Of a DNA stretch of 64,000 bases, positions 5,309-58,857 are shown in pieces; positions within the stretch are counted from its first letter, which is position 1; every line of letters begins with the position of its first letter. Source of the DNA: Bacteroidales bacterium (lineage in GTDB: Bacteria > Bacteroidota > Bacteroidia > Bacteroidales > VadinHA17); contig JALONT010000012.1 of the NCBI GenBank assembly GCA_025454795.1, positions 6,569 through 70,568 of the forward strand, written 5' to 3'. The translations under genes and the position numbers were made by a program. Under the pieces are notes generated by a model. It did not search any database. It saw only the letters and a program-made list of their open reading frames with translations, and was not told the DNA's origin.

Positions 5309-5313
5309 TGAGA

Positions 5314-5745: not shown

Positions 5746-5746
5746 A

Positions 5747-6661: not shown

Positions 6662-6677
6662 AAGGATGATACATTGA

Positions 6678-37942: not shown

Positions 37943-39373
37943 TCAGTAAAGTTCCTCGATTAAAAATATCACATGTCTGTCCAGCGCGGACCAGTATTTT
38001 ATAGAATTCTTCCTTACCAGTTCCCAGTAAATATTACTGTCGAGGCCATGGACGAAATTAATTTCCTTAAGCTCGGAAATTATTCTTCCTGCAATTTCCG
38101 GCTTCAGTGTCAGCCGTATTTTCCTGTTCATATAAGTGAATTCAGCAGAAGCAGTTGCGACAGTGTCATTTCTGACAGTCAGGAGACCATGTCCTGGAGT
38201 GGCACCCGTGCTTACCTGAATCCCGTCATTCATGCAGCTGAGGGGAGGCAATGAACCGGCAAATGAGGTTGTTGAGAATTCATCGACACCGGTGTTAAAA
38301 TACTCCCTGGCCCTGATCCCCATTTTTACACCAACAATTGCAAATACACCAAGGTGACGATGAAGTTCATTTGCAAGTACCCCGGATGTCCACTCATCAA
38401 CCCCGAACTTTAAAATAATTTCATTTACTGAGGATTGTATATCATCAAAATAAAATTCAGGATCAACGGGCATCTCTTTGATTACCTGGTTCTTTGAGAC
38501 GGTTTCGCATTTAAGCATTCTGACCAAACCACCCATGAGCATCTCTTTTTGCGATGGAAAGCTCTCTGAATTTATTCCTGAAGTATCAGTTTTAAAGTAT
38601 TCCGGATACTGCAAAAAGAGTGCTAATGTTTCATCGGTAGCGAAATATAAAAAATCGTGTCCCTTAGCAACCTCTGAGCTGAAAAATCCGTAAAACTTTT
38701 CTCCGTATTTTGTGCTTATCCCCCTAATCTCTTCAACCAGGGCTTCGTTGAAAAGCTTTTCCTGTCCAAACCCTCTGACAGTTTTGACCGGGATCTCTCC
38801 TTTTAAAACATTTAATGAAGAGGTTGGGTCGATATTATAGTTAAATCCTTTGGTGTCGGATAGCCCGTTTGAACTCCAGATTATCTCCTTTACCTGTTGC
38901 CTGAACAGAGGAATGTTTTTCCTTGCAAATTCAGCGGTTGACATTCCTCCCAGACATAAAAAGCTTATCCGGGTTTTCTCATGCGAAAGGAGATCATCTA
39001 TTAAAGTAAAGCAATCAGGTGCCTTCTCAGGATTTATGCCGGTCTCATCACCCCATATAGCCTTCATGGGAATAGTAAATTCAGGTGATTTAAATGCTGA
39101 ATTTCTGTTGATCCCTACCGGAATGCCCTCATGATAGAATGAGTTCAGAAGACTCTTAATTTTGATGTATGCTTTTTCCCGGTTAAGAGCCCCCGGAGAA
39201 ACAGTTACTGCAAGAACCCTGATGTCTGGTGAAGCGAGAAGCATCGTTATTGCTCTCATGTCATCTATTCCGCCGTCAGTGTCAACTATAACATAATGAG
39301 ACGGTTTCCACGGATGAGAATATGCCAGGATATTAAGAATCAGTCCCAAAATGAGCAATAATGATCGTTTCAT
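37943..39373 (-). CDS. secreted fusion protein: inosine-uridine-preferring nucleoside hydrolase-like N-terminal domain plus FmdE-like C-terminal domain
   Basis: Signal peptide, then IVDTDGGIDDMRAI (nucleoside hydrolase Asp cluster). The C-terminal HLGVFAIVGVKMG...SCMNDGIQVSTGATPGHG resembles FmdE family motifs. Confidence 0.65.
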   Translation of the reverse strand: MKRSLLLILGLILNILAYSHPWKPSHYVIVDTDGGIDDMRAITMLLASPDIRVLAVTVSPGALNREKAYIKIKSLLNSFYHEGIPVGINRNSAFKSPEFTIPMKAIWGDETGINPEKAPDCFTLIDDLLSHEKTRISFLCLGGMSTAEFARKNIPLFRQQVKEIIWSSNGLSDTKGFNYNIDPTSSLNVLKGEIPVKTVRGFGQEKLFNEALVEEIRGISTKYGEKFYGFFSSEVAKGHDFLYFATDETLALFLQYPEYFKTDTSGINSESFPSQKEMLMGGLVRMLKCETVSKNQVIKEMPVDPEFYFDDIQSSVNEIILKFGVDEWTSGVLANELHRHLGVFAIVGVKMGIRAREYFNTGVDEFSTTSFAGSLPPLSCMNDGIQVSTGATPGHGLLTVRNDTVATASAEFTYMNRKIRLTLKPEIAGRIISELKEINFVHGLDSNIYWELVRKNSIKYWSALDRHVIFLIEELY

Positions 39374-39526: not shown

Positions 39527-39655
39527 TTCAATTACCGTTGGCTTTAGCCAACGGTATAACAGCCTAACAATAAAGGACTTTAGTCCTTATTTTAGGGCTA
39601 AAGCCCGTACCTGGGAAGTCTCTTCATCCGTTGGCTAAAGCCAACGGTAATTGAA
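39527..39655. repeat. 129-bp hairpin-rich element bounded by perfect 28-bp terminal inverted repeats (TTCAATTACCGTTGGCTTTAGCCAACGG)
   Basis: Left repeat 39527-39554; right repeat 39628-39655 is its exact reverse complement. Each repeat is itself a hairpin. Two internal hairpins (AAGGAC-TTTA-GTCCTT and GGGC-TAAA-GCCC) share the CTTTAG/CTAAAG core. Confidence 0.85.
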
Positions 39656-39898: not shown

Positions 39899-41419
39899 AT
39901 GAAAAAATTCCTGATATTGTTTGTTCCCGGATTGATAACAGGGATTTTATTGATAATTGGAGGGGGGATGGTCATCACTAAAACTTCAACAAACAAATTC
40001 TGCGTTTCATGTCACATTCATACGGCGGCTGATGCTTCCTGGAAAAGATCGGTACATTATGAAACACAGTCAGGATACCGGGTTGCATGTGTGGAGTGTC
40101 ATCTTCCTCCCACAGGAGATGCTTACCTCTGGGAAAAAGGTAAGACAGGTCTCAGGGATATCTGGAGTTACTGGACAAAAGATTCGGCATCTTTTAACTG
40201 GGAAGATCGCAGTAGACTTGAAATTGCCCGTGGATATGTTTACGAAGGCAGTTGCATAAAATGCCATGAGAATCTTTTTCCGGTAAAGCTGACAAAAAAG
40301 GGTGAAGATGCTCACCTCTATTATAAACAGTCGAAGAAGACGCCTGATCTTCATTGTATTAACTGCCATCTTAATGCCGGACATTATATGGAAGGTTATA
40401 CACATGGAAGCAATAAGACTTTTGGATCTGTCTCTTCAGCTCCAAAAGAAATTTTTAAAGAACCTGCAAAAGTGAATGGATTTGAATCATTCACCGAACA
40501 GATACCTCATTCTCCTGTATCATTCAGGATGGTAGCAATTCCAGGCGGGAAGTTTCTGATGGGAAGTCCTGAAGAAGAACCATTCCGTAAAGCTGATGAA
40601 GGACCTGTAAGGGAAGTTGAAATATCTCGGTTTTTCATGGCCGAGGTCGAAGTGACCTGGGATGAATATCTGGCGTTTTATGCTCAGACTGCTGCTGAAG
40701 GGAGGTCAACTGATACAGAAGGAGTAAGATCAAAAACAACTTCTGATATAGACGCTATATCAGGCGCGACACCTCCTTACGGGCAACCTGACCAGGGATG
40801 GGGAATGGATCAGAGACCTGCAATATCATTAAGCTATCATGCAGCACAAACATACTGCAGGTGGCTATCATCTGTAACCGGAAGATCTTACCGGCTGCCT
40901 GCGGAGGCGGAATGGGAATATGCATGCAGGGCAGGAACAACAACTCCCTATTCCTTTAAAGGTGATCCGGAAAAATTTCAAAAAACCGGATTTAAAGCAA
41001 AGCTGTCAAAGGATGATACTGCTGTAATTAATTCATATATAATATATAAGGCTAACAGTTCAGGCAAAACACAAACTTCTGAAATGGTAAAATCCAATCC
41101 GTTCGGATTGAAGAACATGACAGGCAATGTAGCTGAATTCTGCCTTGACTGGTACCAGCCTGATGCATACTCACAATATCCTGAAGGTGTTGTTAAAGAT
41201 CCACGCGGACCGGAAACCGGGGAAGAGCATGTGATTCGCGGAGGATCATACAGGAACTTTGCCGGATCTTTACGCAGTGCAGCCCGTGGTTATACACGGA
41301 CAGAAGAATGGCTGAAGACTGATCCTCAGATCCCCAAAAGCATTTGGTGGTATTCCGATTGTTTCTATGTGGGATTCAGAGTTGTGTGTGAATTTGACGA
41401 AACGACCGGGAAATTGTAA
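39899..41419 (+). CDS. membrane-anchored NapC/NirT/NrfH-type tetrahaem cytochrome c fused to an FGE-fold (SUMF1/EgtB/PvdO family) domain
   Basis: One N-terminal TM helix. Four CxxCH sites (CVSCH, CVECH, CIKCH, CINCH). Then IPGGKFLMGSP...WEYACRAG...RGGSY, typical of the FGE fold. Confidence 0.8.
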   Translation: MKKFLILFVPGLITGILLIIGGGMVITKTSTNKFCVSCHIHTAADASWKRSVHYETQSGYRVACVECHLPPTGDAYLWEKGKTGLRDIWSYWTKDSASFNWEDRSRLEIARGYVYEGSCIKCHENLFPVKLTKKGEDAHLYYKQSKKTPDLHCINCHLNAGHYMEGYTHGSNKTFGSVSSAPKEIFKEPAKVNGFESFTEQIPHSPVSFRMVAIPGGKFLMGSPEEEPFRKADEGPVREVEISRFFMAEVEVTWDEYLAFYAQTAAEGRSTDTEGVRSKTTSDIDAISGATPPYGQPDQGWGMDQRPAISLSYHAAQTYCRWLSSVTGRSYRLPAEAEWEYACRAGTTTPYSFKGDPEKFQKTGFKAKLSKDDTAVINSYIIYKANSSGKTQTSEMVKSNPFGLKNMTGNVAEFCLDWYQPDAYSQYPEGVVKDPRGPETGEEHVIRGGSYRNFAGSLRSAARGYTRTEEWLKTDPQIPKSIWWYSDCFYVGFRVVCEFDETTGKL

Positions 41420-41445
41420 TTTTAAATTCTTAAAACCAACTTAAT

Positions 41446-42804
41446 ATGAAGAAAGCCAGTATCTCAAGGCGTAATTTTTTAGGTAAAGCTGCCACTGTGG
41501 GGGCAGCAGGAATAGTTGTTCCTTCATTATTATCTGGCTGTGATCGTTATAATAAGAAACGGGTCAAAGCTATATCGTGGCTCGACCAGGCTCCTGACGG
41601 ACCAGTTCTTAAGGCAGGTGTTATAGGCTGTGGAGGTCGTGGTACAGGAGCTGCCATTAACTTTCTGAATGCAGGGCCAAAACTTCAGATTACAGCTCTG
41701 GGAGACACATTCAAGGACCGTATTGAGAATTGCAGGGCAAAGATATTAAAGGAAAAAGGACAGGAAGTTCTTGAAGAAATGTGCTTTATAGGTTTCGATG
41801 CTTACCAGAAAGTGATTAACTCCGGGGTCGACATTATTATTAATGCCACCCCGCCATTCTTTCGCCCCGAAATTATTGCTGCAGCTGTTGCAGCCCGTAA
41901 GCATGTTTTTGCTGAAAAACCTGTGTGCGTTGATCCTGTTGGTGCAAGGTCAATAATGGCAACTGCATTAAAAGCCAAAGAATTGGGATTGACAATTGTT
42001 ACGGGGACCCAGCGCCGTCATCAGCGCGATTATGTGGCTAACTATCAGAACGTTCAGGCTGGTGCAATAGGCGATATAGTTGGCGGAACTGTTTGGTGGA
42101 ATGGTGGAAAACTATGGCATCGGGATAATAATCCTGAATGGAGTGAAATGGAATGGATGATCCGCGACTGGGTCAACTGGTGCTGGCTCTCAGGCGATCA
42201 TATTGTAGAACAGCATGTCCATAATCTTGATGTACTGAACTGGTTTACAGGTTCACATCCGGTAAAAGCAGTTGGCATGGGATCAAGGCAGAGGCGTGTT
42301 ACCGGTGATCAGTTTGATAGTTTCAGTGTCGATTTTGTATTTGAGGACGGAAGACATTTCCATAGCATGTGCAGACAGATAAATGGTTGTGCTAATAATG
42401 TTTCGGAAAGACTCCAGGGAGCTGCCGGCTCAACAAACTGCCAGAATTCAATCCTTGACCTTGCAGGAACAGAAATATGGAAATATGAGTACCCGAAGGA
42501 TGAAAAAGGTATTGAAAACAAAGCATTAATGAAGGCTGCCATGGACCAGGAGCATATCGACTTTATTAACTCAGTAAGGAATAATCTGGCTTTCAATGAA
42601 CTTGAGAACACAGCAATCTCAACTTTGGTAGCTATCATGGGTCGTGTTTCAGCTTATACAGGTAAAGAAGTAACCTGGGATGAGATGATGAACTCTGATC
42701 TCAGACTTGGTCCTAAAGTTTTTGAATTTGGTCCGGTTGATGTTCCAAAAGAGGTGCCAATAGCAGGTCTTGCTTATGTACCTCAGGAAAATAACAAGAA
42801 ATAA
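41446..42804 (+). CDS. Tat-exported Gfo/Idh/MocA family oxidoreductase (probable lipoprotein)
   Basis: Twin-arginine motif SRRNFLGKAA followed by LLSGC, a Rossmann GVIGCGGRG motif, and a Gfo/Idh/MocA C-terminal domain. Confidence 0.85.
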   Translation: MKKASISRRNFLGKAATVGAAGIVVPSLLSGCDRYNKKRVKAISWLDQAPDGPVLKAGVIGCGGRGTGAAINFLNAGPKLQITALGDTFKDRIENCRAKILKEKGQEVLEEMCFIGFDAYQKVINSGVDIIINATPPFFRPEIIAAAVAARKHVFAEKPVCVDPVGARSIMATALKAKELGLTIVTGTQRRHQRDYVANYQNVQAGAIGDIVGGTVWWNGGKLWHRDNNPEWSEMEWMIRDWVNWCWLSGDHIVEQHVHNLDVLNWFTGSHPVKAVGMGSRQRRVTGDQFDSFSVDFVFEDGRHFHSMCRQINGCANNVSERLQGAAGSTNCQNSILDLAGTEIWKYEYPKDEKGIENKALMKAAMDQEHIDFINSVRNNLAFNELENTAISTLVAIMGRVSAYTGKEVTWDEMMNSDLRLGPKVFEFGPVDVPKEVPIAGLAYVPQENNKK

Positions 42805-42819
42805 TCTAATAATTCCTTT

Positions 42820-43764
42820 ATGAATAGTTCCCGGAGAGACTTCATAAGAAAAGCCACGGCAACAGGAGCCGCTATCATAGCTGCTCCTGCTGTATTCGGT
42901 TCTGAAGAACTGGCAAAAAGACGCAGATCAGCCGAACCTGTGGTTCCTTTTAAGCTTAAATATGCACCCAGCCTTGGAATGTTCAGGGAGCATGCAGGTA
43001 CAGATCCTGTCGATAACATTAAATTCTGTTACGATCAGGGATTCAGGGCAATGTTTGATAACGGCTTTCCTAAACGACCAGTAGATGAGCAGGATAAAAT
43101 AGCTAATGAGATGCAGAAGCTGGGGATGCTGCTGGGTCCTTATGTTCTCTATGCTGATTTTTCAGTAACCTCTTTCGTCCTGAATAAACCGGAGGTCAGG
43201 GAAATGCTTATAAACAAAATGAAGGAGGGGGTTGAAGTAGTTAAAAGGACAGGGGCTAAGTGGGCTCTGATGGTTCCCGGACGATATGATGAAAAACTTC
43301 ACCGGGATTTTCAGACTGCAAATGTCATCGACAACCTTCGTTATTGCTGCGAAATTGCTGAGCCGGAAGGTCTTACAATTGTTCTCGAACCGCTAAATAC
43401 CCTCAGAAATCACCCTGGATTATTTCTGACAGGAATTCCGCAGGCATATTCAATATGTCGTGCCGTAAACAGTACTTCCTGCAAAATAGTCAATGATATT
43501 TATCACCAGCAGATCACTGAAGGCAACCTGATCCCAAACATTGAAGCAGCATGGGATGAGATTGCAGCTTTCCATTGCGGAGATAACCCCGGCCGGAATG
43601 AACCCTATACCGGAGAGATTAATTTTAAAAATGTATTCAAATACATTTACAGCCGTAAATATGAGGGCGTTATCTGCATGGAGCATGGTAAAAGCTTAAA
43701 AGGGAAAGAAGGCGAACTTAAACTACTGGAAGCTTATCGCGAAGCTGATAGCTTTGAAGTATAA
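42820..43764 (+). CDS. Tat-exported hydroxypyruvate-isomerase-like (Hyi family) xylose-isomerase-fold TIM barrel
   Basis: SRRDFIRKATATGAA Tat motif. LEPLN...NDIYHQQITEGNL...GDNPGRNEPYTGEINF...CMEH matches the Hyi-family pattern. Confidence 0.8.
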   Translation: MNSSRRDFIRKATATGAAIIAAPAVFGSEELAKRRRSAEPVVPFKLKYAPSLGMFREHAGTDPVDNIKFCYDQGFRAMFDNGFPKRPVDEQDKIANEMQKLGMLLGPYVLYADFSVTSFVLNKPEVREMLINKMKEGVEVVKRTGAKWALMVPGRYDEKLHRDFQTANVIDNLRYCCEIAEPEGLTIVLEPLNTLRNHPGLFLTGIPQAYSICRAVNSTSCKIVNDIYHQQITEGNLIPNIEAAWDEIAAFHCGDNPGRNEPYTGEINFKNVFKYIYSRKYEGVICMEHGKSLKGKEGELKLLEAYREADSFEV

Positions 43765-43772
43765 TAATCATC

Positions 43773-43801
43773 AAAAGAGACTGAAAATAAGCCTCTTTTT
43801 T
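43773..43801 (+). terminator. weak/possible intrinsic terminator between the Hyi-like and lactonase genes
   Basis: AAAAGAGAC / GCCTCTTTT stem (one mismatch), a 9-nt loop, then a T-run. Confidence 0.4.
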
Positions 43802-43808
43802 ATCTGAT

Positions 43809-44939
43809 ATGTATAAATCAATGAAAAAATATTCAGTTTTGGTATATTCACTATTATTCTTTACCGGGCTTTTCTCTACCGGTTGCAGGGAAAATTCAAT
43901 TTTTTTTGCCGGCGGATTCTCAAACGAGGGCGAAAAGGGATTCTCAGTTTTTAAGTTCGACAACCGGAATGGAATCGCTGAGAAAATATCAGATTGGGAT
44001 GCAGGAACCAAACCAGCTTTTTTCTGTTATAACAGCAAGCGTAATCTGATCTACATCCTAAATGAAGTTATGGAATTCAGGGGAACCCCAGGTAGCGGAC
44101 TTACTACATTGGAATACGATCCCCTTAATAACCTTATAAAAAAAAGAAATGAAATTTTAGTCCCATACGGAGGATCGTGCCATATTTCATTGTCAGCAGA
44201 TAAACAATTTTTATTTTTTGCAAATTATGCTACGGGTTCTGTTGCAGTCGTCGGCCTGGATGAAAATGGGATTCCTGAAAGAGTTACCGATTCTATATTA
44301 TACGCAACGGAAGCCCAGGATGTTTCACATCCCCATATGATATTACAAGATCCCTCAGGTAAACATATATACCTGACCGACCTGGGTCTCGACAGGATCG
44401 TTAAATATGATCTTGATACCAGCACCGGGAAGCTGATTCAATCTGAGAATGGTATTATTGAGCTATCTGAAGGCTCTGGTCCCCGTCATTTTGTGTTTAA
44501 TCCGGATGGTTCACAGCTTTATGTTATCAATGAACTGGGATCAACACTAATGGTATTTAATGTTGTTGAAAATGGTGTTCTGAAACTGGTTCAGACATTG
44601 CCAACAGTTAAGCCGGGATTTGAGGGCAAAAATTTTTGTGCTGATATCCATATCGGAACAAATAACAAATTCCTTTACGGGTCGAACAGAGGCGAGAATT
44701 CAATTGTTGTCTTCAGGATTGAAGGTGACGGAACATTAACTCTTGCAGGAAGTGTATCGTGTGGAGGCGACTGGCCAAGGAATTTTATAATAGATCCGTC
44801 TGGTAAATTCCTTCTCGTGGGAAATCAGAGATCAGATAATATTTCTGTATTAAGGATCAACCGTAAGACGGGTATTCCAGGAAAACCTGTAAGCAATACT
44901 TCCCTTAAGGCACCCGGCTGTATCAGATTCTGGGAATAG
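43809..44939 (+). CDS. lactonase family lipoprotein (7-bladed beta-propeller, 6-phosphogluconolactonase/cycloisomerase-like)
   Basis: Lipobox FSTGC. Repeated blade motifs and GSGPRHFVFNPDG / NRGENSIVVF, typical of the PF10282-type lactonases as I recall them. Confidence 0.75.
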   Translation: MYKSMKKYSVLVYSLLFFTGLFSTGCRENSIFFAGGFSNEGEKGFSVFKFDNRNGIAEKISDWDAGTKPAFFCYNSKRNLIYILNEVMEFRGTPGSGLTTLEYDPLNNLIKKRNEILVPYGGSCHISLSADKQFLFFANYATGSVAVVGLDENGIPERVTDSILYATEAQDVSHPHMILQDPSGKHIYLTDLGLDRIVKYDLDTSTGKLIQSENGIIELSEGSGPRHFVFNPDGSQLYVINELGSTLMVFNVVENGVLKLVQTLPTVKPGFEGKNFCADIHIGTNNKFLYGSNRGENSIVVFRIEGDGTLTLAGSVSCGGDWPRNFIIDPSGKFLLVGNQRSDNISVLRINRKTGIPGKPVSNTSLKAPGCIRFWE

Positions 44940-44949
44940 AATTTCTGAA

Positions 44950-46515
44950 ATGATCATGAAACGTGGAGATTTAATCGCTGATTTACAGCGCAACAAAAAC
45001 ACCGGATGTGATATAATAGTGATCGGAGGCGGGGCCAGCGGATTAGGTATTGCCCTGGATGCAGCAACAAGAGGTTACAAAACACTTTTACTTGAACAAT
45101 ATGACTTTGCAAAAGGGACTTCATCACGAAGTACAAAGCTGGTTCACGGAGGAGTTCGCTATCTTGCACAGGGCGATATCCTTCTGGTAACGGAAGCATT
45201 GCATGAACGGGGAAGGATTTTAAAGAATGCCCCTCATCTTACAGCAAACCAGGAGTTTATCATTCCTGTCTATTCTCTGTGGGATGTGATTTTATATACG
45301 GTTGGATTAACTTTTTATGATCTTCTTGCCGGAAGGCTGAGTCTGGGCAGATCATATTTCATCAGCCGTTCCAGGGCCATTGCACGGCTGCCTCTTCTCA
45401 GAAAAGAAGGGCTGAAAGGTGGAATTGTTTACCGGGATGGACAGTTTGATGATTCCAGACTGGCGATTGCCCTCGCCAAAACCTGTGTGGACAAAGGCGG
45501 GACCGTACTTAATTATTTCAAAGTCATTGGTTTTCTGAAGAATGGAGATGGGAGAATAACAGGTGTCACTGCAAAAGATCAGCAGATAGGAGAGGAAATA
45601 ACACTAAATTCAAAACTGGTGATTAATGCTACAGGCGTTTTTGCAGATGAGATCCACCGGATGGATGATCCCGGTTCAAAACCAACTATCCGTCCAAGCC
45701 AGGGAGTTCATGTGGTACTGGATAGCTCTTTTCTTCAGAGCAGTTCAGCAATAATGATCCCTAAAACTGATGATGGCAGGGTACTGTTCGCAATCCCATG
45801 GTATGGGAAAATCGTTGTCGGAACAACTGATACACCCCTTGATGAAATAACACCCGAACCTAAAGCACTCGATACTGAAATAGATTTCATCCTGAAAACT
45901 GCAGGCAAATATCTTACAAGGGCTCCCTCAAGGAAAGATGTTCTGTGTATCTTTGCAGGACTAAGGCCTCTGGCGGCGGATCCTGATAACCCTTTGTCAA
46001 CGAAAGAGGTATCACGAAGACACAAGATCACCCTTTCAAAATCAGGCCTTTTATCAATTATTGGCGGGAAATGGACGTCATACCGCCGGATGGCTGAAGA
46101 GACTATCGAAAAAGGGATAAATGCAGGGATCCTTGAGAAGAGAAAATGCATTACAAAAGATCTCAGGTTAATTTCAAACGAAGCAGCGCTAAGATCGGAC
46201 CGTCTGAAGATCTATGGCGATAATGCAGACGAAATTGAAGAGCTGATAGAGGAACAACCATCACTCGGAGAGCCTCTTCACATTTCTCTCCCTTATACAA
46301 GAGCTGAAATAATCTGGATCTGCAGGAACGAAATGCCTTTAACCCTCGAGGATATACTGGCAAGAAGGACGAGGGCATTGTTTCTCGATACGAAGGCAAG
46401 CATTGAAATTGCACCTGCTGTTGCATCCATTATGACAAAGGAACTTGGATTAAGCACCAGCTGGGAAAAAGAACAAATTGAAACTTATAATCAACTGGTA
46501 TTAAATTATTTATAA
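44950..46515 (+). CDS. glpD: FAD-dependent glycerol-3-phosphate dehydrogenase
   Basis: DIIVIGGGASGLGIALDAATRG FAD motif and GTSSRSTKLVHGGVRYL; 521 aa. Confidence 0.9.
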   Translation: MIMKRGDLIADLQRNKNTGCDIIVIGGGASGLGIALDAATRGYKTLLLEQYDFAKGTSSRSTKLVHGGVRYLAQGDILLVTEALHERGRILKNAPHLTANQEFIIPVYSLWDVILYTVGLTFYDLLAGRLSLGRSYFISRSRAIARLPLLRKEGLKGGIVYRDGQFDDSRLAIALAKTCVDKGGTVLNYFKVIGFLKNGDGRITGVTAKDQQIGEEITLNSKLVINATGVFADEIHRMDDPGSKPTIRPSQGVHVVLDSSFLQSSSAIMIPKTDDGRVLFAIPWYGKIVVGTTDTPLDEITPEPKALDTEIDFILKTAGKYLTRAPSRKDVLCIFAGLRPLAADPDNPLSTKEVSRRHKITLSKSGLLSIIGGKWTSYRRMAEETIEKGINAGILEKRKCITKDLRLISNEAALRSDRLKIYGDNADEIEELIEEQPSLGEPLHISLPYTRAEIIWICRNEMPLTLEDILARRTRALFLDTKASIEIAPAVASIMTKELGLSTSWEKEQIETYNQLVLNYL

Positions 46516-46545
46516 ATACGGGTCTATTATTTTATTCTCACAGAC

Positions 46546-48039
46546 ATGAAAAAATTCATTCTTTCACTTGACCAGGGAACTACCAGTTCAAGAGCAATAA
46601 TATTTGACAGGAAAGGATTGCCGGTTTCAACAGCACAAAAAGAATTCACACAGTATTATCCTGAACCTGGCCGTGTTGAGCACAATCCGGAAGAGATATG
46701 GTCAACTCAGGCCGGAGTCGCCACGGAAGCAATCACCAAAGCAGGACTGGAAAGCGTAAACATTGCTGCAATCGGCATTACCAACCAGAGAGAGACGACA
46801 GTAGTCTGGAACAGAAAGACAGGCAAGCCGGTTTATAATGCTATTGTCTGGCAGGACAGGCGAACTGCTGACTTTTGCGACCGCCTGAAAAACGAGGGTT
46901 ATGATCAGATAATACTAGAAAAGACAGGACTTATAGTAGATGCATATTTCTCCGCTACAAAGGTCAGATGGATACTCGATAATGTAAGTGGCGCCAGTGA
47001 GATGGCAAACAGGGGAGAGCTTGCGTTAGGGACAATTGATTCATGGCTGGTGTGGAATCTTACTCGCGGGAAGCTTCATGTTACTGATGTTTCGAATGCA
47101 TCCCGGACAATGATATTTAATATCCATAGTTTAAAATGGGATGATGAGCTGCTTAAAATATTTGATATTCCGGCAAGTATGCTGCCCGAGGTAAAATCAT
47201 CAAGTGAAACATACGGGGAAGCTTCGGGGATTTTTTCAACACCCATTCCTGTTGCCGGTATTGCAGGCGACCAGCAGGCAGCTCTCTTCGGCCAGATGTG
47301 TGTCGACCCCGGGATGGTGAAAACCACTTATGGAACAGGCTGTTTTATGATGATGAACATAGGGACAAAACCTATTAAATCAAAAAACAGGTTGTTGACA
47401 ACCATAGCATGGAAGATTGGGAACAAAACTGATTACGCACTTGAAGGCAGCATTTTTATAGGCGGAGCAGTTGTCCAGTGGCTGCGCGACAGTCTTGGAA
47501 TTATTAAAAAATCAGCTGATGTTGAGAAGCTTGCAGCAAAAGTTAAGGACAGTGAAGGAGTCTATTTTGTTCCCGCTTTTGCGGGACTGGGAGCGCCCTA
47601 CTGGAATCAGCATGCAAGAGGATCAATAACAGGGATCACACGAGGATCAATGTCAGCACATATCGCCAGGGCGGCCCTCGACAGTATTGCTTACCAGACC
47701 CTTGAGGTACTGCTGGCAATGAATAAAGATTCAGGAATTGAAATTAAAGAACTCAGGGTTGACGGAGGTGCAACATTAAATAATAGCCTGATGCAGTTTC
47801 AGACCGATCTCCTGCAGGCAAATGTTGTGCGCCCGAGGATAACCGAAACAACGGCTCTCGGTGCTGCCTATCTGGCAGGACTTGCTGTAAACTACTGGGC
47901 TGACCTTAATGAGATAAGACAGCAATGGCAGGTTGACCGGACTTTCATACCTGGCATAAAACCTGAAGAAACTCATTCTCTGATAAAAGGCTGGCAGCGT
48001 GCAGTAAAAGCTGCAACAACATGGGCTGATGATAAATAA
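46546..48039 (+). CDS. glpK: glycerol kinase
   Basis: [26 protein letters not shown], and full-length FGGY kinase collinearity. Confidence 0.95.
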
Positions 48040-48132: not shown

Positions 48133-48846
48133 ATGAACCAGTTTTTTGCAGAATTTTTCGGTACAGCCATGATCATTGTTTTAGGTGGAGGAGTAGTATC
48201 CATTGTTCTTCTCAGTAAGACCAAAGGCAACAACAGCGGATGGATCGTCATCACATTCGGATGGGCAGTCGGAGTATTTACCGGAGTGCTGATAGCGGCA
48301 CCTGTAAGCGGCGCTCATCTGAATCCGGCCGTAACCCTTGACCTCGTGCTTGCACATAAATTTTCACCATCGCTTATGCCTTTATATATAAGTGCATAAC
48401 TTCTTGGTGCAATGTTCGGAGCCGGACTGGTATGGCGTGCCTATAAAAAGCACTTTGATGCAACGGATGATGCAGATGCAAAGCTTGCAGTTTTCTGTAC
48501 TACACCGAATATCAGGAGCTACTGGTATAATGTTGTAACAGAAATAATCGGAACCTACGTTCTTGCGCTGGCTGTTCTTTATATGGCAGCACCGGAAGTT
48601 GGACTTGGTGCACTAAATGCACTTCCTGTGGCTATCGTTGTTCTTGGTATAGGACTTTCATTGGGAGGACCTACCGGGTACGCAATAAATCCGGCACGTG
48701 ATCCTGGGCCACGTCTCATGCACTTTTTCCTGCCTTTACCACGCAAAAGAGACAGTGACTGGAAATACTCATGGGTGCCAATCCTCGGTCCAATGGTCGG
48801 AGCATCGCTGGCAGCTGTTATGTTCGTTTTGTTCGGTGGAGTATAA
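48133..48846 (+). pseudogene. glpF: glycerol uptake facilitator (MIP/aquaporin) interrupted by one in-frame TAA
   Basis: ORFs 48133-48399 and 48412-48846 are in the same frame. NPAVT lies in the first half and NPARD in the second. The TAA at 48397-48399 sits where aquaporins carry the conserved Gln (YISA*LLGAMFGAGLV versus ..SQVAGAF.. in E. coli GlpF). Confidence 0.85.
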
Positions 48847-49491: not shown

Positions 49492-50505
49492 TTAAAGAAC
49501 CTCAGTCAGTTTTACGGGGCGATTTTCCAGGAGTGATTTCTTTGCTGCCAATGCAACAGCAACAGCAACTAATCCGTCATTGCCGGATTCTGAAAGGGGC
49601 AGATCTTTAATGACTGCATTACAAAACATTTTCATTTCAGTGGTAAATGCCTCAATATACCTGTCCATGAAGAAATTCAACGGCAGTGATCTGTGCACAC
49701 CATCACTGGCAAAATAGAAGTGATTATCAGGGAAATTATTGTCAGCACATAGCATACCTTTCGAACCAAATATTTCAACTCTCTGGTCGTATCCGTATAC
49801 TGCCTTCCGGCTGTTGTCGATGACTCCGATTGCCCCATTGGTAAAGGTGAGCAAAATTACTGCTGTGTCTACATCACCTGCTTTGCCGATTTCAGGATCA
49901 ACCAGCACTGCAGCTTTTGTGAATACCTCAGTAACTTCGCTTCCGGTAATATATCTGGCCATATCAAAATCGTGTATGGTCATGTCCATGAACATACCCC
50001 CCGATGCTTCAATATATCCGGGATGAGGAGGAGTCGGATCACGTGAAGTGATCTTTAGAATGTGAGGATCGCCAATTTTTCCTTCAGCAACCAGCTGCTT
50101 GATCTTCAGAAAATTAGGATCAAAACGACGATTAAATCCTATCATCAGCTTAACACCTGCCTTTTCAACAGCCTTTAATGATCCTTTGATGACATCAAGA
50201 GAAAGGGCAATAGGTTTTTCACAAAAAATATGTTTTCCGACGTTGGCTGCATCTATAATATATTGTGCATGCGTATCTGTCGGAGAACAGATAGCAACGG
50301 CATCAACTTCGGGAAGATTGAATACGTCTTTATAGTTGCTGAATACCTTATTTATTCCGAAATTCTTCGCTACTTCTTTTGCACTAACAAGATTAGTGTC
50401 AGCAATTGCAACTAATTCAGCTTGAGGAACACTCTGAACCATTGTTGCAATATGGACCTTGCCAATTCTTCCGGTACCTATTACTCCAAGTTTTAGTTTT
50501 TTCAT
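49492..50505 (-). CDS. iolG: inositol 2-dehydrogenase (Gfo/Idh/MocA, cytoplasmic)
   Basis: Start at MKKLKLGVIGTGRIG. CEKP and GFNRRFDPNF motifs. Sits within the iol gene context. Confidence 0.85.
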   Translation of the reverse strand: MKKLKLGVIGTGRIGKVHIATMVQSVPQAELVAIADTNLVSAKEVAKNFGINKVFSNYKDVFNLPEVDAVAICSPTDTHAQYIIDAANVGKHIFCEKPIALSLDVIKGSLKAVEKAGVKLMIGFNRRFDPNFLKIKQLVAEGKIGDPHILKITSRDPTPPHPGYIEASGGMFMDMTIHDFDMARYITGSEVTEVFTKAAVLVDPEIGKAGDVDTAVILLTFTNGAIGVIDNSRKAVYGYDQRVEIFGSKGMLCADNNFPDNHFYFASDGVHRSLPLNFFMDRYIEAFTTEMKMFCNAVIKDLPLSESGNDGLVAVAVALAAKKSLLENRPVKLTEVL

Positions 50506-50539
50506 TTTATAAATTTTAAGGTTCAATTAGTTATTGATA

Positions 50540-51439
50540 TTATAAGCCAAGAGATTTAATAAACTCCCTGTTGTGTTGTGCACAAACTTTTGGATTTCCC
50601 ATCCCGGGGAGGACATCCTGCTCAACAACTATCCAACCGGAGTACCTCTGTGCTTTGAGCTTCTTGACAATAGCTTTGAAATCGACCGATCCCTTTCCAA
50701 GCTCACAAAAAACGCCATTGGCAACGGATTTAAAATAATCCCATCCTTCAGCCCTGGATTTTTCTGCCGCACCCGGATGGCAATCTTTGAAATGGATATG
50801 CCATATCCTGTTCCTGTGCTCTTTCAGCGCTTCAACAGGATTTCCACCTCCAAACATATAGTGACCCATATCGAGAACAAGACCAACAAGAGAGGGATCA
50901 GTTAGGGAAAGCAGATTGTCAATTTCAGCAGGTGTTTCCACATACCCTGCACAATGATGGTGAAAGACAGTTCGAAGACCTGTTCTGGATTTTACTTCAG
51001 ATGCAACAAGATTTGCTCCTTCAGCAAAAATTTTCCACTCATCTTTGCTGAGTCCCGTTGATGGAGTTACTCTTCCTGCATTCAATGTCCGTTCTTTCAC
51101 GCTTCCGTTTTTATCGGCAAGAACGATAAAAGCATCACTATAACCCGCATCAGCCATCAGCTTTGCAGTTTTTACTGCTGTTTCGGCACCCGCAGCATGT
51201 TTTGACCTGTCCTTCATAAAAACCGGGACAAACGCTCCAACCATTGAAAGTGATCGTTTGTCGAGCTCCTTTTTTAATTTAAAAGGTATTGTCGGCATAA
51301 AACCCCAGTCGCCAAGCTCAGAGCCTTCATAACCGGTTTCCCGGATTTCATCAAGAACCTGTTCAAATCCGGCAGCTTTACCACCCAGATCAAATTCGAG
51401 GACACCCCATGAACAAGGGGCATTGGCAATTTTTATCAT
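50540..51439 (-). CDS. iolE: myo-inosose-2 dehydratase-like TIM barrel
   Basis: FHHH..G..ET..E, D.GH, HIHFKD and YSGWIVVEQD align with my recollection of B. subtilis IolE. The N-terminal half is less similar. Confidence 0.7.
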   Translation of the reverse strand: MIKIANAPCSWGVLEFDLGGKAAGFEQVLDEIRETGYEGSELGDWGFMPTIPFKLKKELDKRSLSMVGAFVPVFMKDRSKHAAGAETAVKTAKLMADAGYSDAFIVLADKNGSVKERTLNAGRVTPSTGLSKDEWKIFAEGANLVASEVKSRTGLRTVFHHHCAGYVETPAEIDNLLSLTDPSLVGLVLDMGHYMFGGGNPVEALKEHRNRIWHIHFKDCHPGAAEKSRAEGWDYFKSVANGVFCELGKGSVDFKAIVKKLKAQRYSGWIVVEQDVLPGMGNPKVCAQHNREFIKSLGL

Positions 51440-51476
51440 AGTAAATTGAAATTAGAAAAACATTTATATTGTTTTA

Positions 51477-52949: not shown

Positions 52950-52981
52950 ATAATTATATTATTTATTGTTATCAGTTTATT

Positions 52982-54841: not shown

Positions 54842-54863
54842 AATCTTTAGTCCTTATTAATAA

Positions 54864-55757
54864 TTACTTACCATTCATTTCAATTGTCACAACCGGGATT
54901 CTGGGATCCATCCCTTTCCATGTTCCATAAATCCATTTATGATCAGGATCATCTGTACTTTTCAGGCTCTGGTCACTTCCTGCAAGAAAATTAAGATAAT
55001 AGACATTGTATCCGTGTCCGGCAACAACAGGGTGGTATCCTTCAGGTATCAGAACCACATCATTATTATGTGCTTCAGCTATTTCATCCAGGCTGCGATC
55101 ATCATTATATACCTTCTGAATTGCAAATCCCTGGGGTTTATCGGTCTTATAAAAATAGATCTCTTCCAGGCTTGCTTCAATAAGTTTGCCCGTAACCGGA
55201 TCAGTTTTCCTGGTGTCGTGCTTATGAGCAGGGAATGAGCTCCAGTTTCCTGAAGGCGTATAAACCTCAACACATACCAGACGGCTGCATTCAGATCCCG
55301 GAGGTAATATGCTGTTTATCTGACGACTGGCATTATCTCCACCCCGGAATTCAATGCCCATATTAACAATGTCAGCAGGAGATATCAACCTGGCCGGGAA
55401 ATTCTTTTCCGCAATGCTCCAGCCACAAGCGATATCAAGAAAATCACCGGCAGGAGAAATTTCAAATTCAGTATGAGGAGGAAGATATAATGCATGAGGG
55501 AGTCCGCTGAATACATTTTTTCTTCCATCTGAGGTTACCCAGGTACCAGCAGATGTTTCTGCCAGTAAATTGCCTCCCATCAGCACAAACAGGTATTCAC
55601 ATCCTCCTGTTTTTCCGGTCCATTTTTGTGATGGCTTTATTGTTCTTGCTGTAAAATTCAATAGATTCCAGCCTGCTTCATCTGCAGTTATCTCCTGGTA
55701 GATTTCTTTATCCAAGGATGATCTTACCAGTACCCGGCATTTTTTATCCCTTTTCAT
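54864..55757 (-). CDS. iolB: 5-deoxy-glucuronate isomerase
   Basis: VEVYTPSGNWSSFPAHKHD...GYHPV...YYLNFLAG closely parallels B. subtilis IolB. Confidence 0.9.
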   Translation of the reverse strand: MKRDKKCRVLVRSSLDKEIYQEITADEAGWNLLNFTARTIKPSQKWTGKTGGCEYLFVLMGGNLLAETSAGTWVTSDGRKNVFSGLPHALYLPPHTEFEISPAGDFLDIACGWSIAEKNFPARLISPADIVNMGIEFRGGDNASRQINSILPPGSECSRLVCVEVYTPSGNWSSFPAHKHDTRKTDPVTGKLIEASLEEIYFYKTDKPQGFAIQKVYNDDRSLDEIAEAHNNDVVLIPEGYHPVVAGHGYNVYYLNFLAGSDQSLKSTDDPDHKWIYGTWKGMDPRIPVVTIEMNGK

Positions 55758-55767
55758 GAATTAGTTT

Positions 55768-56841: not shown

Positions 56842-56888
56842 TGATTCTCCTCCCAGGATGTTTTTATTTAAGTTATGATTTTTAAAGA

Positions 56889-58697: not shown

Positions 58698-58857
58698 GAA
58701 TACTGTTAAAATTTTAGTGAATGATTACAAGGTAAAATTAATTTGAAAAGGGATCACGTTTATACTTTAAATTTATCAATTAGTAATGCTATATTAGCAA
58801 TTCTTGATCAGGTTACCAGAAGTTATGCAAATACTGATATAAATATGCTATTATTTT

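What the first reader, a model, noticed from the sequence alone, without database searches (positions are those of the whole stretch)
39899..44939. Fully exported redox/sugar gene module: tetrahaem quinol-dehydrogenase-like cytochrome-FGE fusion, Tat Gfo/Idh/MocA, Tat Hyi-type TIM barrel and lipoprotein lactonase
Seen directly:
- Four consecutive same-strand genes are separated by 26, 15 and 44 nt.
- Every product carries an export or anchor signal: a TM helix, SRRNFL plus LLSGC, SRRDFI, and FSTGC.
- The block continues with only 10-nt and 30-nt gaps into glpD-glpK.

Established knowledge:
- NapC/NirT/NrfH cytochromes shuttle electrons between the menaquinol pool and periplasmic partners.
- Periplasmic Gfo/Idh/MocA enzymes such as Zymomonas GFOR keep NAD(P) tightly bound and need a re-oxidising partner.
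- Gfo/Idh/MocA plus xylose-isomerase-fold TIM-barrel pairs carry out 3-keto-glycoside oxidation and elimination chemistry. Examples are the DgpA/B/C-type C-glycoside cleavage and the Bacteroides BT2156-2159-type route.

Inference: this could be a periplasmic sugar, polyol or glycoside oxidation pathway (dehydrogenase to lactone or keto-sugar, then lactonase or isomerase). Its electrons would be passed to the respiratory chain through the unusual cytochrome fusion. I cannot tell from sequence whether this exact four-gene architecture has been characterised, and I am not aware that it has.
Basis: partly seen in the sequence, partly recalled or inferred. Interest (0 to 1): 0.7.

Follow-up and report, generated by a model that had tools for sequence, protein, structure and literature searches.

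The report
Flavin-tagged cytochrome partner for periplasmic dehydrogenase
The conserved unit is a two-gene pair, not a four-gene pathway: an exported sugar-type dehydrogenase sits beside a membrane cytochrome whose sulfatase-maturase-like domain has lost its catalytic cysteines and carries a perfect site for covalent flavin attachment, so it probably wires periplasmic oxidation to the quinone pool in a way not yet described.

Summary
Four same-strand genes lie at 39899-44939 with gaps of 26, 15 and 44 nt, and all four domain calls and export signals hold.

- Of 87 related loci with downstream DNA, 75 have the Tat-Gfo/Idh/MocA gene directly after the NapC/NirT-FGE fusion. This holds across Bacteroidota, KSB1, Melioribacteraceae and a Verrucomicrobia-labelled MAG.
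- The TIM barrel follows in about half of the loci.
- The lactonase and glpD/glpK appear only in the closest clade.

The FGE-like domain lacks both catalytic cysteines. It carries DAISGAT (residues 285-291), an exact match to the ApbE flavinylation motif, and its Thr is invariant.

Cytochrome-less relatives in Planctomycetota-like contigs also pair with orthologous Gfo genes.
- 9 of 28 sit beside apbE.
- Two are fused to an unrelated cytochrome c type (PSCyt1).
- 46 generic FGE-like loci have no Gfo neighbour, and one has ApbE.

Best model: substrate, then bound NAD, then covalent FMN on the FGE fold, then four haems, then menaquinone. I found no description of this in the literature I could search. 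The substrate, the flavinylation itself and the direction of electron flow are untested.

The parts
39899..41419 (+). Fusion protein (506 aa): N-terminal membrane helix, tetrahaem NapC/NirT module, linker, FGE-fold domain
   Evidence: The exact sequence is NCBI MCU0472838.1, named 'SUMF1/EgtB/PvdO family nonheme iron enzyme' from a Bacteroidales MAG.
39908..40390 (+). NapC/NirT-type tetrahaem module (residues 4-164). CxxCH motifs are at nt 40001-40015, 40088-40102, 40253-40267 and 40355-40369. Invariant extra histidines are H41, H53, H139 and H162. K80 is invariant and D87 is conserved in at least 90% of sequences.
   Evidence: PF03264 scores 91.7 bits. The best solved relative is NrfH 2j7a (E 0.0039), with K80 and D87 aligned to NrfH K82 and D89.
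40529..41398 (+). FGE-fold domain (about residues 211-500) without the two copper-binding catalytic cysteines
   Evidence: PF03781 scores 146.8 bits. T. curvata FGE 'FLCHESYCNRYR' aligns to query 'Y---RNFAGSLR'. The closest solved fold is PvdO 5hha, followed by FGEs.
40751..40771 (+). D285-A-I-S-G-A-T291, an exact match to the ApbE flavinylation motif D-x-x-[S/T]-G-A-[S/T]. T291 is the predicted FMN attachment site.
   Evidence: The motif definition is from PMC12052999. G289, T291, P292 and P293 are invariant in 39 diverse sequences. Of 238 family hits, 230 have D-x-x-[ST]-G-[AP]-T. The motif lies in a low-confidence loop (266-300) of an otherwise confident model.
41309..41359 (+). Family-specific invariant C-terminal motif W471...D-P-Q-x-P-K-S-x-W-W...D487, located where FGE has its cysteine loop
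   Evidence: The motif is shared with cytochrome-less relatives and is absent from generic FGE-like proteins. Residues 474-480 have pLDDT below 50.
41446..42804 (+). Tat-exported lipoprotein Gfo/Idh/MocA dehydrogenase (452 aa). Features: RR at residues 8-9, lipobox C32, LDxAPDG arm, GCGGRG, EKP, GDHIVEQHVHN and CRQINGC.
   Evidence: Orthologues pair with the fusion in 83 of 87 loci. It is 44-51% identical to the partners of the cytochrome-less FGE-like proteins.
42820..43764 (+). Tat-exported xylose-isomerase-fold TIM barrel (Hyi/OtnI-like). It is a frequent but not obligatory third gene.
   Evidence: PF01261 scores 99.3 bits; TIGR03234 scores 105.8 against a cut-off of 353. It is present after Gfo in 39 of 82 loci and in L085, and upstream of the pair in L084.
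43809..44939 (+). Lipoprotein 7-bladed lactonase. It is a lineage-specific neighbour, not part of the conserved unit.
   Evidence: PF10282 scores 295.7 bits. It is present in only 15 of 82 loci, all with a fusion at least 68% identical to the window's.
44950..48039 (+). glpD and glpK, cytoplasmic glycerol genes. They are lineage-specific neighbours.

Best explanation
Genes 1 and 2 encode a two-subunit, membrane-anchored periplasmic dehydrogenase that feeds electrons into the menaquinone pool.

Proposed mechanism:
1. The Gfo/Idh/MocA subunit is folded with NAD in the cytoplasm, exported by Tat and lipid-anchored.
2. It oxidises a secondary alcohol of a sugar, glycoside or cyclitol. The substrate is unresolved.
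3. Its bound NADH is re-oxidised by an FMN that ApbE attaches covalently to Thr291, on a flexible loop of the FGE-fold domain of the partner.
4. The flavin splits the electron pair and passes single electrons along four c-type haems of the fused NapC/NirT module.
5. That module reduces menaquinone at an NrfH-like site.

The Tat TIM barrel, where present, would process the keto-sugar product. In this genome's clade the lactonase and the glp genes are add-ons.

Shown:
- the architecture and export signals;
- loss of the FGE catalytic cysteines;
- a perfect and invariant flavinylation motif;
- obligate pairing with Gfo across phyla;
- apbE beside cytochrome-less relatives;
- independent fusions of this domain to two unrelated cytochrome c types.

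Inferred: the flavinylation itself, the order of carriers, the direction of electron flow and the substrate class.
For: Pairing:
- 75 of 87 loci have Gfo directly downstream (median gap 85 nt) and 8 more after an insert.
- The pairing holds in KSB1, Melioribacteraceae and a Verrucomicrobia-labelled MAG.
- Two paralogous fusions in Gaoshiqia each keep their own Gfo.

Flavin site:
- DAISGAT equals the published motif.
- The Thr is invariant.
- The only other match in the window's long ORFs is in cytoplasmic glpK.
- T. curvata FGE has Ala at the position aligned to T291.

ApbE link:
- Cytochrome-less relatives carrying the same C-terminal motif sit next to orthologous Gfo genes in 3 of 3 look-ups, and next to ApbE in 2 of 3.
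- In L090 the FGE and apbE genes overlap by 4 nt.
- In the metagenome set, 9 of 28 standalone family loci carry ApbE against 1 of 46 generic FGE-like loci (p 5e-4). Gfo neighbours number 21 of 37 against 0 of 46 (p 5e-10).
- No other canonical ApbE client lies within 5 kb of those apbE genes.

Haem link: the L115 protein has two PSCyt1 domains plus the FGE-like domain. The L105 protein has one CxxCH in a weak, sub-threshold PSCyt1-like region (19.1 bits against a cut-off of 22) plus the FGE-like domain, with both Gfo and ApbE beside it.

Quinone site: K80 and D87 align with NrfH K82 and D89.

Gfo subunit: it keeps GxGxxG, EKP and the Tat signal.
Against: - No experiment exists.
- No apbE lies in the window or in any of about 95 cytochrome-fusion loci. 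An apbE elsewhere in these genomes is assumed, not checked.
- The relatives that do sit beside apbE mostly carry a non-canonical site (DAV[ST]RPT) rather than SGAT.
- The FGE fold has no known flavin pocket, and the closest solved structures are not flavoproteins.
- The model gives low confidence for both key loops and for the haem domain, so no geometry supports the order of carriers.
- The direction of electron flow is argued only from thermodynamics.
- The housekeeping contexts (a class II tRNA synthetase gene, rpoN) fit a catabolic enzyme poorly.
Confidence: 0.55

Rival explanations
1. The FGE-like domain is a redox-inert docking or scaffold domain, as in PorK/GldK or PvdO-like proteins. 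It merely holds the Gfo subunit next to the haems. The DAISGAT sequence is structural, and electrons pass from the Gfo subunit to the haems or the quinone without a flavin.
For: FGE folds are repeatedly reused as non-catalytic modules: PorK and GldK hits appear, and the closest fold, PvdO, lacks the FGE cysteines. No apbE lies next to any cytochrome fusion. The standalone relatives mostly deviate from the canonical motif.
Against: An invariant Thr or Ser sits within a motif that exactly matches the ApbE consensus in most fusions. ApbE is specifically enriched beside the cytochrome-less relatives and no alternative client is nearby. Hydride-carrying NADH has no established route to one-electron haems without a flavin or a metal (established biochemistry).
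Confidence: 0.15
2. The module runs in reverse as a menaquinol-driven periplasmic reductase: quinol, then haems, then flavin, then Gfo. It would reduce a keto-sugar or another periplasmic acceptor, as NapC, NrfH and TorC normally deliver electrons outward.
For: Characterised NapC/NirT members are mostly quinol dehydrogenases; the closest family models are TorC, NrfH and NapC. Gfo/Idh/MocA enzymes include ketoreductases, for example the sugar 3-ketoreductase and 1,5-anhydrofructose reductase hits.
Against: Reducing bound NAD+ (about -320 mV) from menaquinol (about -74 mV) is strongly uphill (established values, not tested here). Periplasmic keto-sugar reduction would cost respiratory electrons with no obvious gain.
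Confidence: 0.12
3. One reading: the four exported genes form one fixed catabolic pathway (dehydrogenase, TIM-barrel isomerase or lyase, lactonase) for a particular sugar, polyol or glycoside, co-transcribed with glycerol genes.
For: The gaps are short and no convincing internal terminator was found. The same order recurs in the nearest relatives. In this clade a secreted nucleoside-hydrolase-like gene lies upstream, and some relatives have a NupG-like transporter inserted. L084 has 3-keto-glycoside-type neighbours.
Against: The lactonase and glpD/glpK are restricted to loci whose fusion is at least 68% identical to the window's. The TIM barrel is absent from the Prolixibacteraceae clade, KSB1 and both Gaoshiqia loci. 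The Gfo partner stays 44-75% identical across phyla whatever its neighbours, which points to one conserved job independent of the lactonase.
Confidence: 0.1
4. The FGE-like domain is itself the catalyst: a PvdO-like or FGE-like oxidase acting on a periplasmic small molecule or protein side chain and dumping electrons into the haems. Gfo would be an auxiliary or unrelated partner.
For: The top NCBIfam hit of the domain is PvdO (dihydropyoverdine dehydrogenase), at 96.6 bits against a cut-off of 500. PvdO is also the best structural match. An invariant family-specific motif replaces the FGE active-site loop.
Against: This does not explain the obligate Gfo pairing across four or more phyla, or the co-duplication of the pair. 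The PvdO score is far below the family cut-off.
Confidence: 0.08

Closest known systems
NrfH / NapC / CymA / TorC (NapC/NirT family membrane tetrahaem quinol dehydrogenases)
   Same: N-terminal membrane helix, four CxxCH motifs and a PF03264 match. The NrfH quinol-site Lys and Asp are conserved.
   Different: - Scores are far below every equivalog cut-off (torC 73 against 478, NrfH 65 against 134).
- Haem 1 has CxxCHxH instead of NrfH's CxxCHxM.
- It is fused to an FGE-fold domain rather than docking a reductase.
- It is proposed to reduce quinone rather than oxidise quinol.
ApbE-flavinylated extracytosolic electron-transfer proteins (NqrC/NqrB, RnfG/RnfD, PplA, NosR, PceC, and flavinylated Flavodoxin_4 and FMN_red proteins)
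   Same: An exact D-x-x-[S/T]-G-A-[S/T] motif on an extracytosolic domain. There is apbE co-localisation in relatives. The proposed role is to link a two-electron donor to one-electron carriers.
   Different: The carrier fold is FGE/C-type-lectin-like, not FMN_bind or flavodoxin-like. It is not mentioned in the flavinylation surveys or the review that I searched. Many relatives have R-P instead of G-A in the motif.
Tat-exported Gfo/Idh/MocA enzymes with tightly bound NAD(P): Zymomonas GFOR and Bacteroides BT2158 glycoside 3-dehydrogenase
   Same: Tat signal, Rossmann GxGxxG, EKP, and a periplasmic location with no free NAD(P) pool (PMC8121099 read).
   Different: GFOR and BT2158 are thought to regenerate the cofactor by reducing a second sugar. 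Here a dedicated cytochrome partner is always encoded next door. The window protein scores 21.8 against a cut-off of 750 for the BT2158 family.
Membrane-bound flavoprotein-cytochrome c sugar dehydrogenases (LacABC lactose/glucoside 3-dehydrogenase; fructose and gluconate dehydrogenases of acetic acid bacteria)
   Same: Periplasmic sugar oxidation handed through a flavin and c-type haems to the quinone pool (knowledge of these systems, and the discussion in PMC8121099).
   Different: In those systems the flavin (FAD) sits in the catalytic GMC-type subunit. Here the catalytic subunit is NAD-dependent, and the flavin would sit on the cytochrome subunit's FGE-fold domain.
PvdO, PorK/GldK and GldJ (FGE-fold proteins without FGE chemistry)
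   Same: FGE fold, periplasmic, and catalytic cysteines absent.
   Different: None of them is fused to haems, carries a flavinylation motif, or pairs with Gfo.

Membership tests
NapC/NirT cytochrome c family (PF03264) | Profile match above the curated cut-off | tested here: met
   91.7 bits against 24.1
NapC/NirT cytochrome c family (PF03264) | N-terminal membrane helix followed by four CxxCH haem sites | tested here: met
   Hydrophobic residues 4-27. CxxCH motifs at C35, C64, C119 and C153, all invariant.
NapC/NirT cytochrome c family (PF03264) | Conserved Lys and Asp of the NrfH menaquinol site | tested here: met
   K80 and D87 align to NrfH K82 and D89 in 2j7a. The role of those NrfH residues is recalled from the literature and was not re-read.
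NrfH / NapC / TorC equivalogs | Score above the NCBIfam equivalog cut-off | tested here: not met
   torC 73.4 against 478; NrfH 65.4 against 134; napC_nirT 51.5 against 311
Formylglycine-generating enzyme (functional FGE) | FGE-sulfatase fold | tested here: met
   PF03781 at 146.8 bits. Foldseek matches FGEs at E about 1e-15.
Formylglycine-generating enzyme (functional FGE) | Two copper-binding catalytic cysteines | tested here: not met
   One falls in a 3-residue deletion and the other aligns to Ala. No Cys is invariant in the domain.
ApbE flavinylation substrates | Motif D-x-x-[S/T]-G-A-[S/T] with a terminal Thr or Ser | tested here: met
   DAISGAT at residues 285-291. The Thr is invariant.
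ApbE flavinylation substrates | Extracytosolic location of the motif | tested here: met
   The motif follows a single N-terminal helix and c-type haem sites, which mature outside the cytoplasm. This is a topology inference.
ApbE flavinylation substrates | apbE gene co-localised or present in the genome | tested here: inconclusive
   None in the window or in about 95 fusion loci. Present beside 9 of 28 cytochrome-less relatives against 1 of 46 controls. Genome-wide presence could not be checked.
ApbE flavinylation substrates | Covalent FMN demonstrated | not testable with these tools
   Needs protein chemistry.
Gfo/Idh/MocA oxidoreductases | Rossmann domain match, GxGxxG and EKP motif | tested here: met
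   PF01408 at 48.7 bits against 24. GCGGRG and EKP are invariant.
Tat-exported proteins | Twin-arginine signal | tested here: met
   TIGR01409 scores 19.8 (Gfo) and 20.5 (TIM barrel) against 16.7. RR is invariant.
BT2158-family glycoside 3-dehydrogenase (NF058561) | Score above the equivalog cut-off | tested here: not met
   21.8 bits against 750. True BT2158-like proteins in L084 score 503-514.
Hydroxypyruvate isomerase / 2-oxo-tetronate isomerase | Score above the equivalog cut-off | tested here: not met
   TIGR03234 at 105.8 against 353; NF043033 at 94.9 against 325. Only the fold-level PF01261 model is met.
6-phosphogluconolactonase (YbhE type) | Score above the equivalog cut-off | tested here: not met
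   NF008258 at 167.7 against 370. PF10282 is met at 295.7 bits. The lipoprotein signal also argues against a cytoplasmic Pgl.

The most novel reading that the evidence does not exclude
The FGE fold has been recruited as a new class of ApbE-flavinylated redox domain. It would act as a built-in diaphorase for a Tat-exported, NAD-bound Gfo/Idh/MocA dehydrogenase. In the Bacteroidota and their relatives it is fused to a NapC/NirT tetrahaem quinone reductase. In Planctomycetota-like organisms it stands alone or is fused to PSCyt1 cytochromes. That would define a widespread and undescribed family of respiratory periplasmic dehydrogenases. It would also explain how periplasmic NAD-bound dehydrogenases can be re-oxidised without a second sugar substrate.
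Probability: 0.5. Interest if true: 0.85.

Novelty: new variant of a known kind. Interest (0 to 1): 0.77.

Why it matters
Periplasmic Gfo/Idh/MocA enzymes are very common in Bacteroidota and Planctomycetota. How their buried NAD(P)H is recycled in a compartment without free nicotinamide cofactors is an acknowledged gap: for BT2158 an unidentified second sugar had to be postulated (PMC8121099). A dedicated flavin-haem partner would be a second, respiration-coupled solution.

It would also add a new fold to the list of ApbE clients and give the huge FGE-sulfatase superfamily a redox role unrelated to sulfatase maturation.

The family is large. At least 595 GTDB species genomes carry a relative of the fusion, and about 8,000 clusters at 90% identity score well against the query, among candidates capped at 8,000. 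It is currently annotated only as 'SUMF1/EgtB/PvdO family nonheme iron enzyme' or 'formylglycine-generating enzyme'. That label would mislead sulfatase-maturation and PUL analyses.

The prediction is directly testable with cultured carriers (Maribellus, Gaoshiqia, Draconibacterium, Puteibacter).

Tried and rejected
- Literature searches found nothing describing the pair. I tried combinations of NapC, formylglycine, Gfo/Idh/MocA, cytochrome, glycoside 3-dehydrogenase, ApbE, FGE-sulfatase and flavinylated. I also made targeted searches inside two flavinylation surveys, one review and the held (truncated) supplement. Absence holds only within the open-access library.
- The exhaustive representative search with the whole fusion was swamped by giant multi-FGE-domain proteins and yielded only about six full-length fusion clusters. 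It was still useful, because it revealed the standalone relatives.
- My first strict regular expressions for the family motifs missed variants such as WY/WH endings and R-P in the flavin site. They were relaxed after reading the sequences. The relaxed pattern admits two probable false positives (L129, L154), which only weakens the contrast.
- The sigma-70 promoter scan is uninformative for Bacteroidota. One exact Bacteroidota-type TAnnTTTG lies 413 nt upstream of the start codon, and only relaxed matches lie closer.
- The hairpin between the TIM barrel and the lactonase genes is not significant. Rfam gave nothing in the block.
- The AlphaFold model was too poor in the haem module and in both key loops to place T291 relative to the haems.
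- GH109-type or BT2158-type identity for the Gfo subunit was considered and rejected on scores.
- A true FGE function, including an anaerobic haem-coupled variant, was considered and rejected because both cysteines are missing.

Full report
**Observation**

The window holds four consecutive + strand ORFs at 39899-41419, 41446-42804, 42820-43764 and 43809-44939. They are separated by 26, 15 and 44 nt, and are followed after 10 and 30 nt by glpD and glpK.

- NapC/NirT (residues 4-164, 91.7 bits) plus FGE-sulfatase (211-467, 146.8 bits) in protein 1.
- GFO_IDH_MocA in protein 2.
- AP_endonuc_2 in protein 3.
- Lactonase in protein 4.

The Tat-signal model passes its cut-off in proteins 2 and 3. 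Protein 1 has a hydrophobic N-terminus and four CxxCH motifs. Proteins 2 and 4 have lipobox cysteines. The exact sequences are in public databases as MCU0472838.1 and MCU0472839.1 from a Bacteroidales MAG. They are named only 'SUMF1/EgtB/PvdO family nonheme iron enzyme' and 'Gfo/Idh/MocA family oxidoreductase'.

**What is conserved**

The fusion is abundant. 7,956 clusters at 90% identity score E <= 1e-10, and the top 120 all have the same architecture. A scan of one genome per GTDB species found at least 595 carriers.

I took the best 80 genomic loci plus seven loci fetched through protein look-ups and nine metagenomic fusion loci. I then mapped the window's proteins onto them and clustered all neighbouring ORFs.
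- Of 87 loci with usable downstream DNA, 75 have the Gfo orthologue directly after the fusion (median gap 85 nt).
- Eight have it after an insertion. In five this is a NupG-like nucleoside:H+ symporter gene. In two it is a roughly 9-kb block of SusC, SusD, DUF6057 and PD40 genes.
- Four show no Gfo within the DNA held; three of them (L012, L015, L020) carry the SusC-led insertion, and L004 carries two of its other genes.

The pairing persists in KSB1, Melioribacteraceae and a Verrucomicrobia-labelled MAG. In Gaoshiqia two paralogous fusions each have their own Gfo.

The other genes are much less constant.
- The TIM barrel follows in 39 of 82 loci.
- The lactonase follows in 15, glpD in 11 and glpK in 14. 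All of these loci have a fusion at least 68% identical to the window's.
- In Prolixibacteraceae the pair is followed by a class II (Asp/Lys/Asn-type) tRNA synthetase gene and rpoN.

The unit is therefore the two-gene pair, often with the TIM barrel, and not the four-gene block.

**The FGE-like domain is not an FGE**

Aligned to solved FGEs, one catalytic cysteine falls in a three-residue deletion and the other aligns to alanine. No cysteine, histidine or methionine is invariant in the domain. The family instead has two private, invariant features:
- A loop reading D-A-I-S-G-A-T-P-P (residues 285-293).
- A C-terminal motif W471...D-P-Q-x-P-K-S-x-W-W...D487, located where FGE has its cysteine loop.

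The closest solved fold is PvdO, another periplasmic FGE-fold protein without the cysteines.

**The flavin lead**

The exhaustive representative search also returned short proteins of 317-388 aa. These have a signal peptide, no haem sites and the same C-terminal motif. They come largely from Gemmataceae-type Planctomycetota.

All three that I looked up are next to a Tat-Gfo gene, and two are next to apbE, the FAD:protein FMN transferase. In L090 the FGE-like gene and apbE overlap by 4 nt and the Gfo gene follows. The Gfo partners in L088 and L090 are orthologues of the window's, at 44% and 51% identity over the full length with the same signature motifs; the L089 partner belongs to a different Gfo subfamily (GFO_IDH_MocA_C2).

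The ApbE recognition motif is D-x-x-[S/T]-G-A-[S/T], with FMN attached to the last residue, and seven residues suffice (review PMC12052999). The window's residues 285-291, DAISGAT, match it exactly.
- Among 238 fusion-family proteins, 126 read DAISGAT, 42 read DAISGPT and the rest are close variants. The terminal Thr is always kept.
- G289, T291, P292 and P293 are invariant in a 39-sequence alignment that goes down to 43% identity.
- In all long open frames of the window, the only other match is in cytoplasmic glpK.

**A control for the associations**

A metagenome scan seeded with the standalone proteins used generic FGE patterns, so it returned a mixture. I split the 83 loci by whether the FGE-like ORF carries either private motif.

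| Group | Loci | Gfo neighbour | ApbE neighbour |
|---|---|---|---|
| Motif-bearing (all) | 37 | 21 | 9 (all standalone) |
| Standalone (subset) | 28 | 14 | 9 |
| Generic FGE-like | 46 | 0 | 1 |

- Gfo neighbours, motif-bearing against generic: Fisher p = 5e-10.
- ApbE neighbours, standalone against generic: p = 5e-4.
- The single generic locus with ApbE is a truncated ORF that is probably a family member.
- No other ORF with a canonical ApbE motif lies within 5 kb of those nine apbE genes. The FGE-like protein is therefore the likeliest client.

**Independent cytochrome fusions**

Two of the metagenomic relatives are fused to a different kind of c-type cytochrome.
- L115 has two PSCyt1 domains (92 bits) in front of the FGE-like domain, with Gfo downstream.
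- L105 has one CxxCH in a weak, sub-threshold PSCyt1-like region (19.1 bits against a cut-off of 22) in front of the FGE-like domain, with Gfo upstream and apbE downstream.

The same FGE-like subfamily has thus been joined at least twice to unrelated haem c modules. That is what one expects of a domain that exchanges electrons with haem.

**The cytochrome module**

Its best solved relative is the menaquinol dehydrogenase NrfH (2j7a). In the alignment, invariant K80 and near-invariant D87 fall on NrfH K82 and D89. I recall these as the quinol-site residues; I did not re-read that paper. Haem 1 has CxxCHxH where NrfH has CxxCHxM. Four further invariant histidines could give bis-His ligation. Scores against the NrfH, NapC and TorC equivalogs are far below their cut-offs, so this is a separate branch of the family.

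**Mechanism**

The simplest reading that uses every conserved feature is as follows.
1. The Tat-exported, lipid-anchored Gfo subunit carries NAD from the cytoplasm. It keeps GCGGRG, EKP, a conserved N-terminal LDxAPDG arm and the catalytic GDHIVEQHVHN block.
2. It oxidises a sugar-type secondary alcohol.
3. The bound NADH passes a hydride to FMN tethered at T291.
4. The flavin releases single electrons into the four haems.
5. The haems reduce menaquinone at the NrfH-like site.

This supplies the two-electron to one-electron converter that a direct NADH-to-haem scheme lacks. The direction follows from the potentials of NAD and menaquinone and is not shown.

The AlphaFold model is confident for the FGE core (pLDDT above 90). 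It is below 50 exactly at residues 266-300 and 474-480, the two private motifs. That is compatible with cofactor- or partner-dependent loops but is not evidence of geometry.

**Substrate**

The substrate is unresolved.
- The nearest characterised relatives of the Gfo subunit are inositol dehydrogenases, DgpA-type C-glycoside 3-oxidases and levoglucosan dehydrogenase, all at low scores.
- It is not a BT2158-family member (21.8 bits against a cut-off of 750).
- Context gives mixed hints. L084 places the pair among two BT2158-like genes, a TIM-DUF1080 fusion and an MFS or nucleoside-symporter-like gene. L089 has ThuA next door.
- The window's own clade has a secreted nucleoside-hydrolase-like gene upstream, with an intact DTDGGIDD motif, and sometimes a NupG-like transporter.
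- Many loci are in housekeeping surroundings.
- The partner is 44-75% identical across phyla, which suggests one common substrate rather than a PUL-specific one.

**Weak points**

- No apbE lies in the window or beside any cytochrome fusion. Its presence elsewhere in these genomes is assumed and could not be checked.
- The relatives that do sit beside apbE mostly read DAV[ST]RPT rather than SGAT.
- No FGE-fold flavoprotein is known.
- Everything here is computational.

**Novelty and verdict**

I found no description of the fusion, of the FGE-like/Gfo pair, or of FGE-fold ApbE clients. I checked six literature searches, two flavinylation surveys, one review and one truncated supplement.

The components belong to known kinds: NapC/NirT quinol-quinone modules, ApbE-flavinylated carriers and Tat-exported NAD-bound dehydrogenases. 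The combination, and the use of the FGE fold as the flavin carrier, is new. I rate it a new variant of a known kind, with an interest of 0.77. I give the full mechanism 0.55 and the narrower claim that genes 1 and 2 work as one unit more than 0.9.

Noticed in passing
window 48133-48846 (+): The glpF (MIP family) gene is interrupted by an in-frame TAA at 48397-48399 ('...LYISA*LLGAMFG...'). Both NPA motifs are intact either side. It looks like a CAA-to-TAA nonsense change or a sequencing error, so the glycerol facilitator may be a pseudogene here.
   Followed up: partly
window 39527-39655: The 526-nt region upstream of the fusion gene holds two copies of a perfect 22-nt palindrome, TACCGTTGGCT(TT/AA)AGCCAACGGTA, 93 nt apart. 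Two smaller palindromes (AAGGACTTTAGTCCTT and GGGCTAAAGCCC) lie between them. No copy was expected by chance. The core matches only once, and elsewhere, in the 170 related loci. There is no Rfam match. It could be a window-specific operator, a MITE or a REP-like insertion.
   Followed up: partly
window 49492-59748: A complete-looking myo-inositol catabolic operon lies on the minus strand: SSF transporter, TAL_FSA aldolase-like, IolB, IolD (TPP enzyme), IolA (Aldedh), IolE (AP_endonuc_2) and a cytoplasmic IolG-like Gfo. A divergent AraC regulator follows. It is not conserved next to the fusion in other loci.
   Followed up: partly
window 37943-39373 (-): A secreted fusion of an inosine-uridine nucleoside hydrolase domain (intact DTDGGIDD) with an FmdE domain is transcribed divergently from the cytochrome gene. 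The same arrangement is kept in 37 related Bacteroidales loci. Function unknown. It may hint at a nucleoside or ribose link in this clade.
   Followed up: partly
L008, L009, L016, L018, L025 (between fusion and Gfo); L012, L015, L020, L028, L033, L038: The tight fusion-Gfo junction is a recurrent insertion site. Five loci have one or two NupG-like nucleoside:H+ symporter genes there. Six loci have a SusC-like gene there, five of them followed by SusD, and most also carry DUF6057 and PD40 genes. In L028 and L033 the Gfo gene reappears about 9 kb downstream.
   Followed up: partly
L115 about 5200-6954; L105 1258-2580: These proteins join one or two Planctomycete-type cytochrome c (PSCyt1) domains to the same FGE-like subfamily (the L105 PSCyt1 match is weak, 19.1 bits against a cut-off of 22). 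Gfo, and in L105 also ApbE, lie beside them. This is an independent cytochrome fusion of the domain.
   Followed up: yes
L084 1-11230: In a Melioribacteraceae MAG the pair is embedded in a cluster with at least two BT2158-like Gfo genes (503-514 bits), another Gfo, an AP_endonuc_2-DUF1080 (3-keto-disaccharide hydrolase) fusion, a Hyi-like TIM barrel and an MFS or nucleoside-symporter-like transporter.
   Followed up: partly
L054, L057 and other Prolixibacteraceae loci; L090: In Prolixibacteraceae and in the distant standalone locus L090, the pair lies close to a class II (Asp/Lys/Asn-type) tRNA synthetase gene and rpoN. This is either an old conserved neighbourhood or a coincidence. It argues for a housekeeping rather than a PUL-type role.
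   Followed up: no
proteins P0121, P0122 and many others: The representative search returned many giant proteins of 1,000-4,400 aa with up to 20 tandem FGE-sulfatase-like stretches (for example P0121, 3008 aa with 17 stretches, and P0122, 4448 aa with 20 stretches). I did not examine their role or their relation to this family.
   Followed up: no
L089 149-3906: A standalone FGE-like gene whose site reads DAVAGPT is paired with a different Gfo subfamily (GFO_IDH_MocA_C2 type) and lies next to ThuA, the partner of the ThuB disaccharide 3-dehydrogenase.
   Followed up: no
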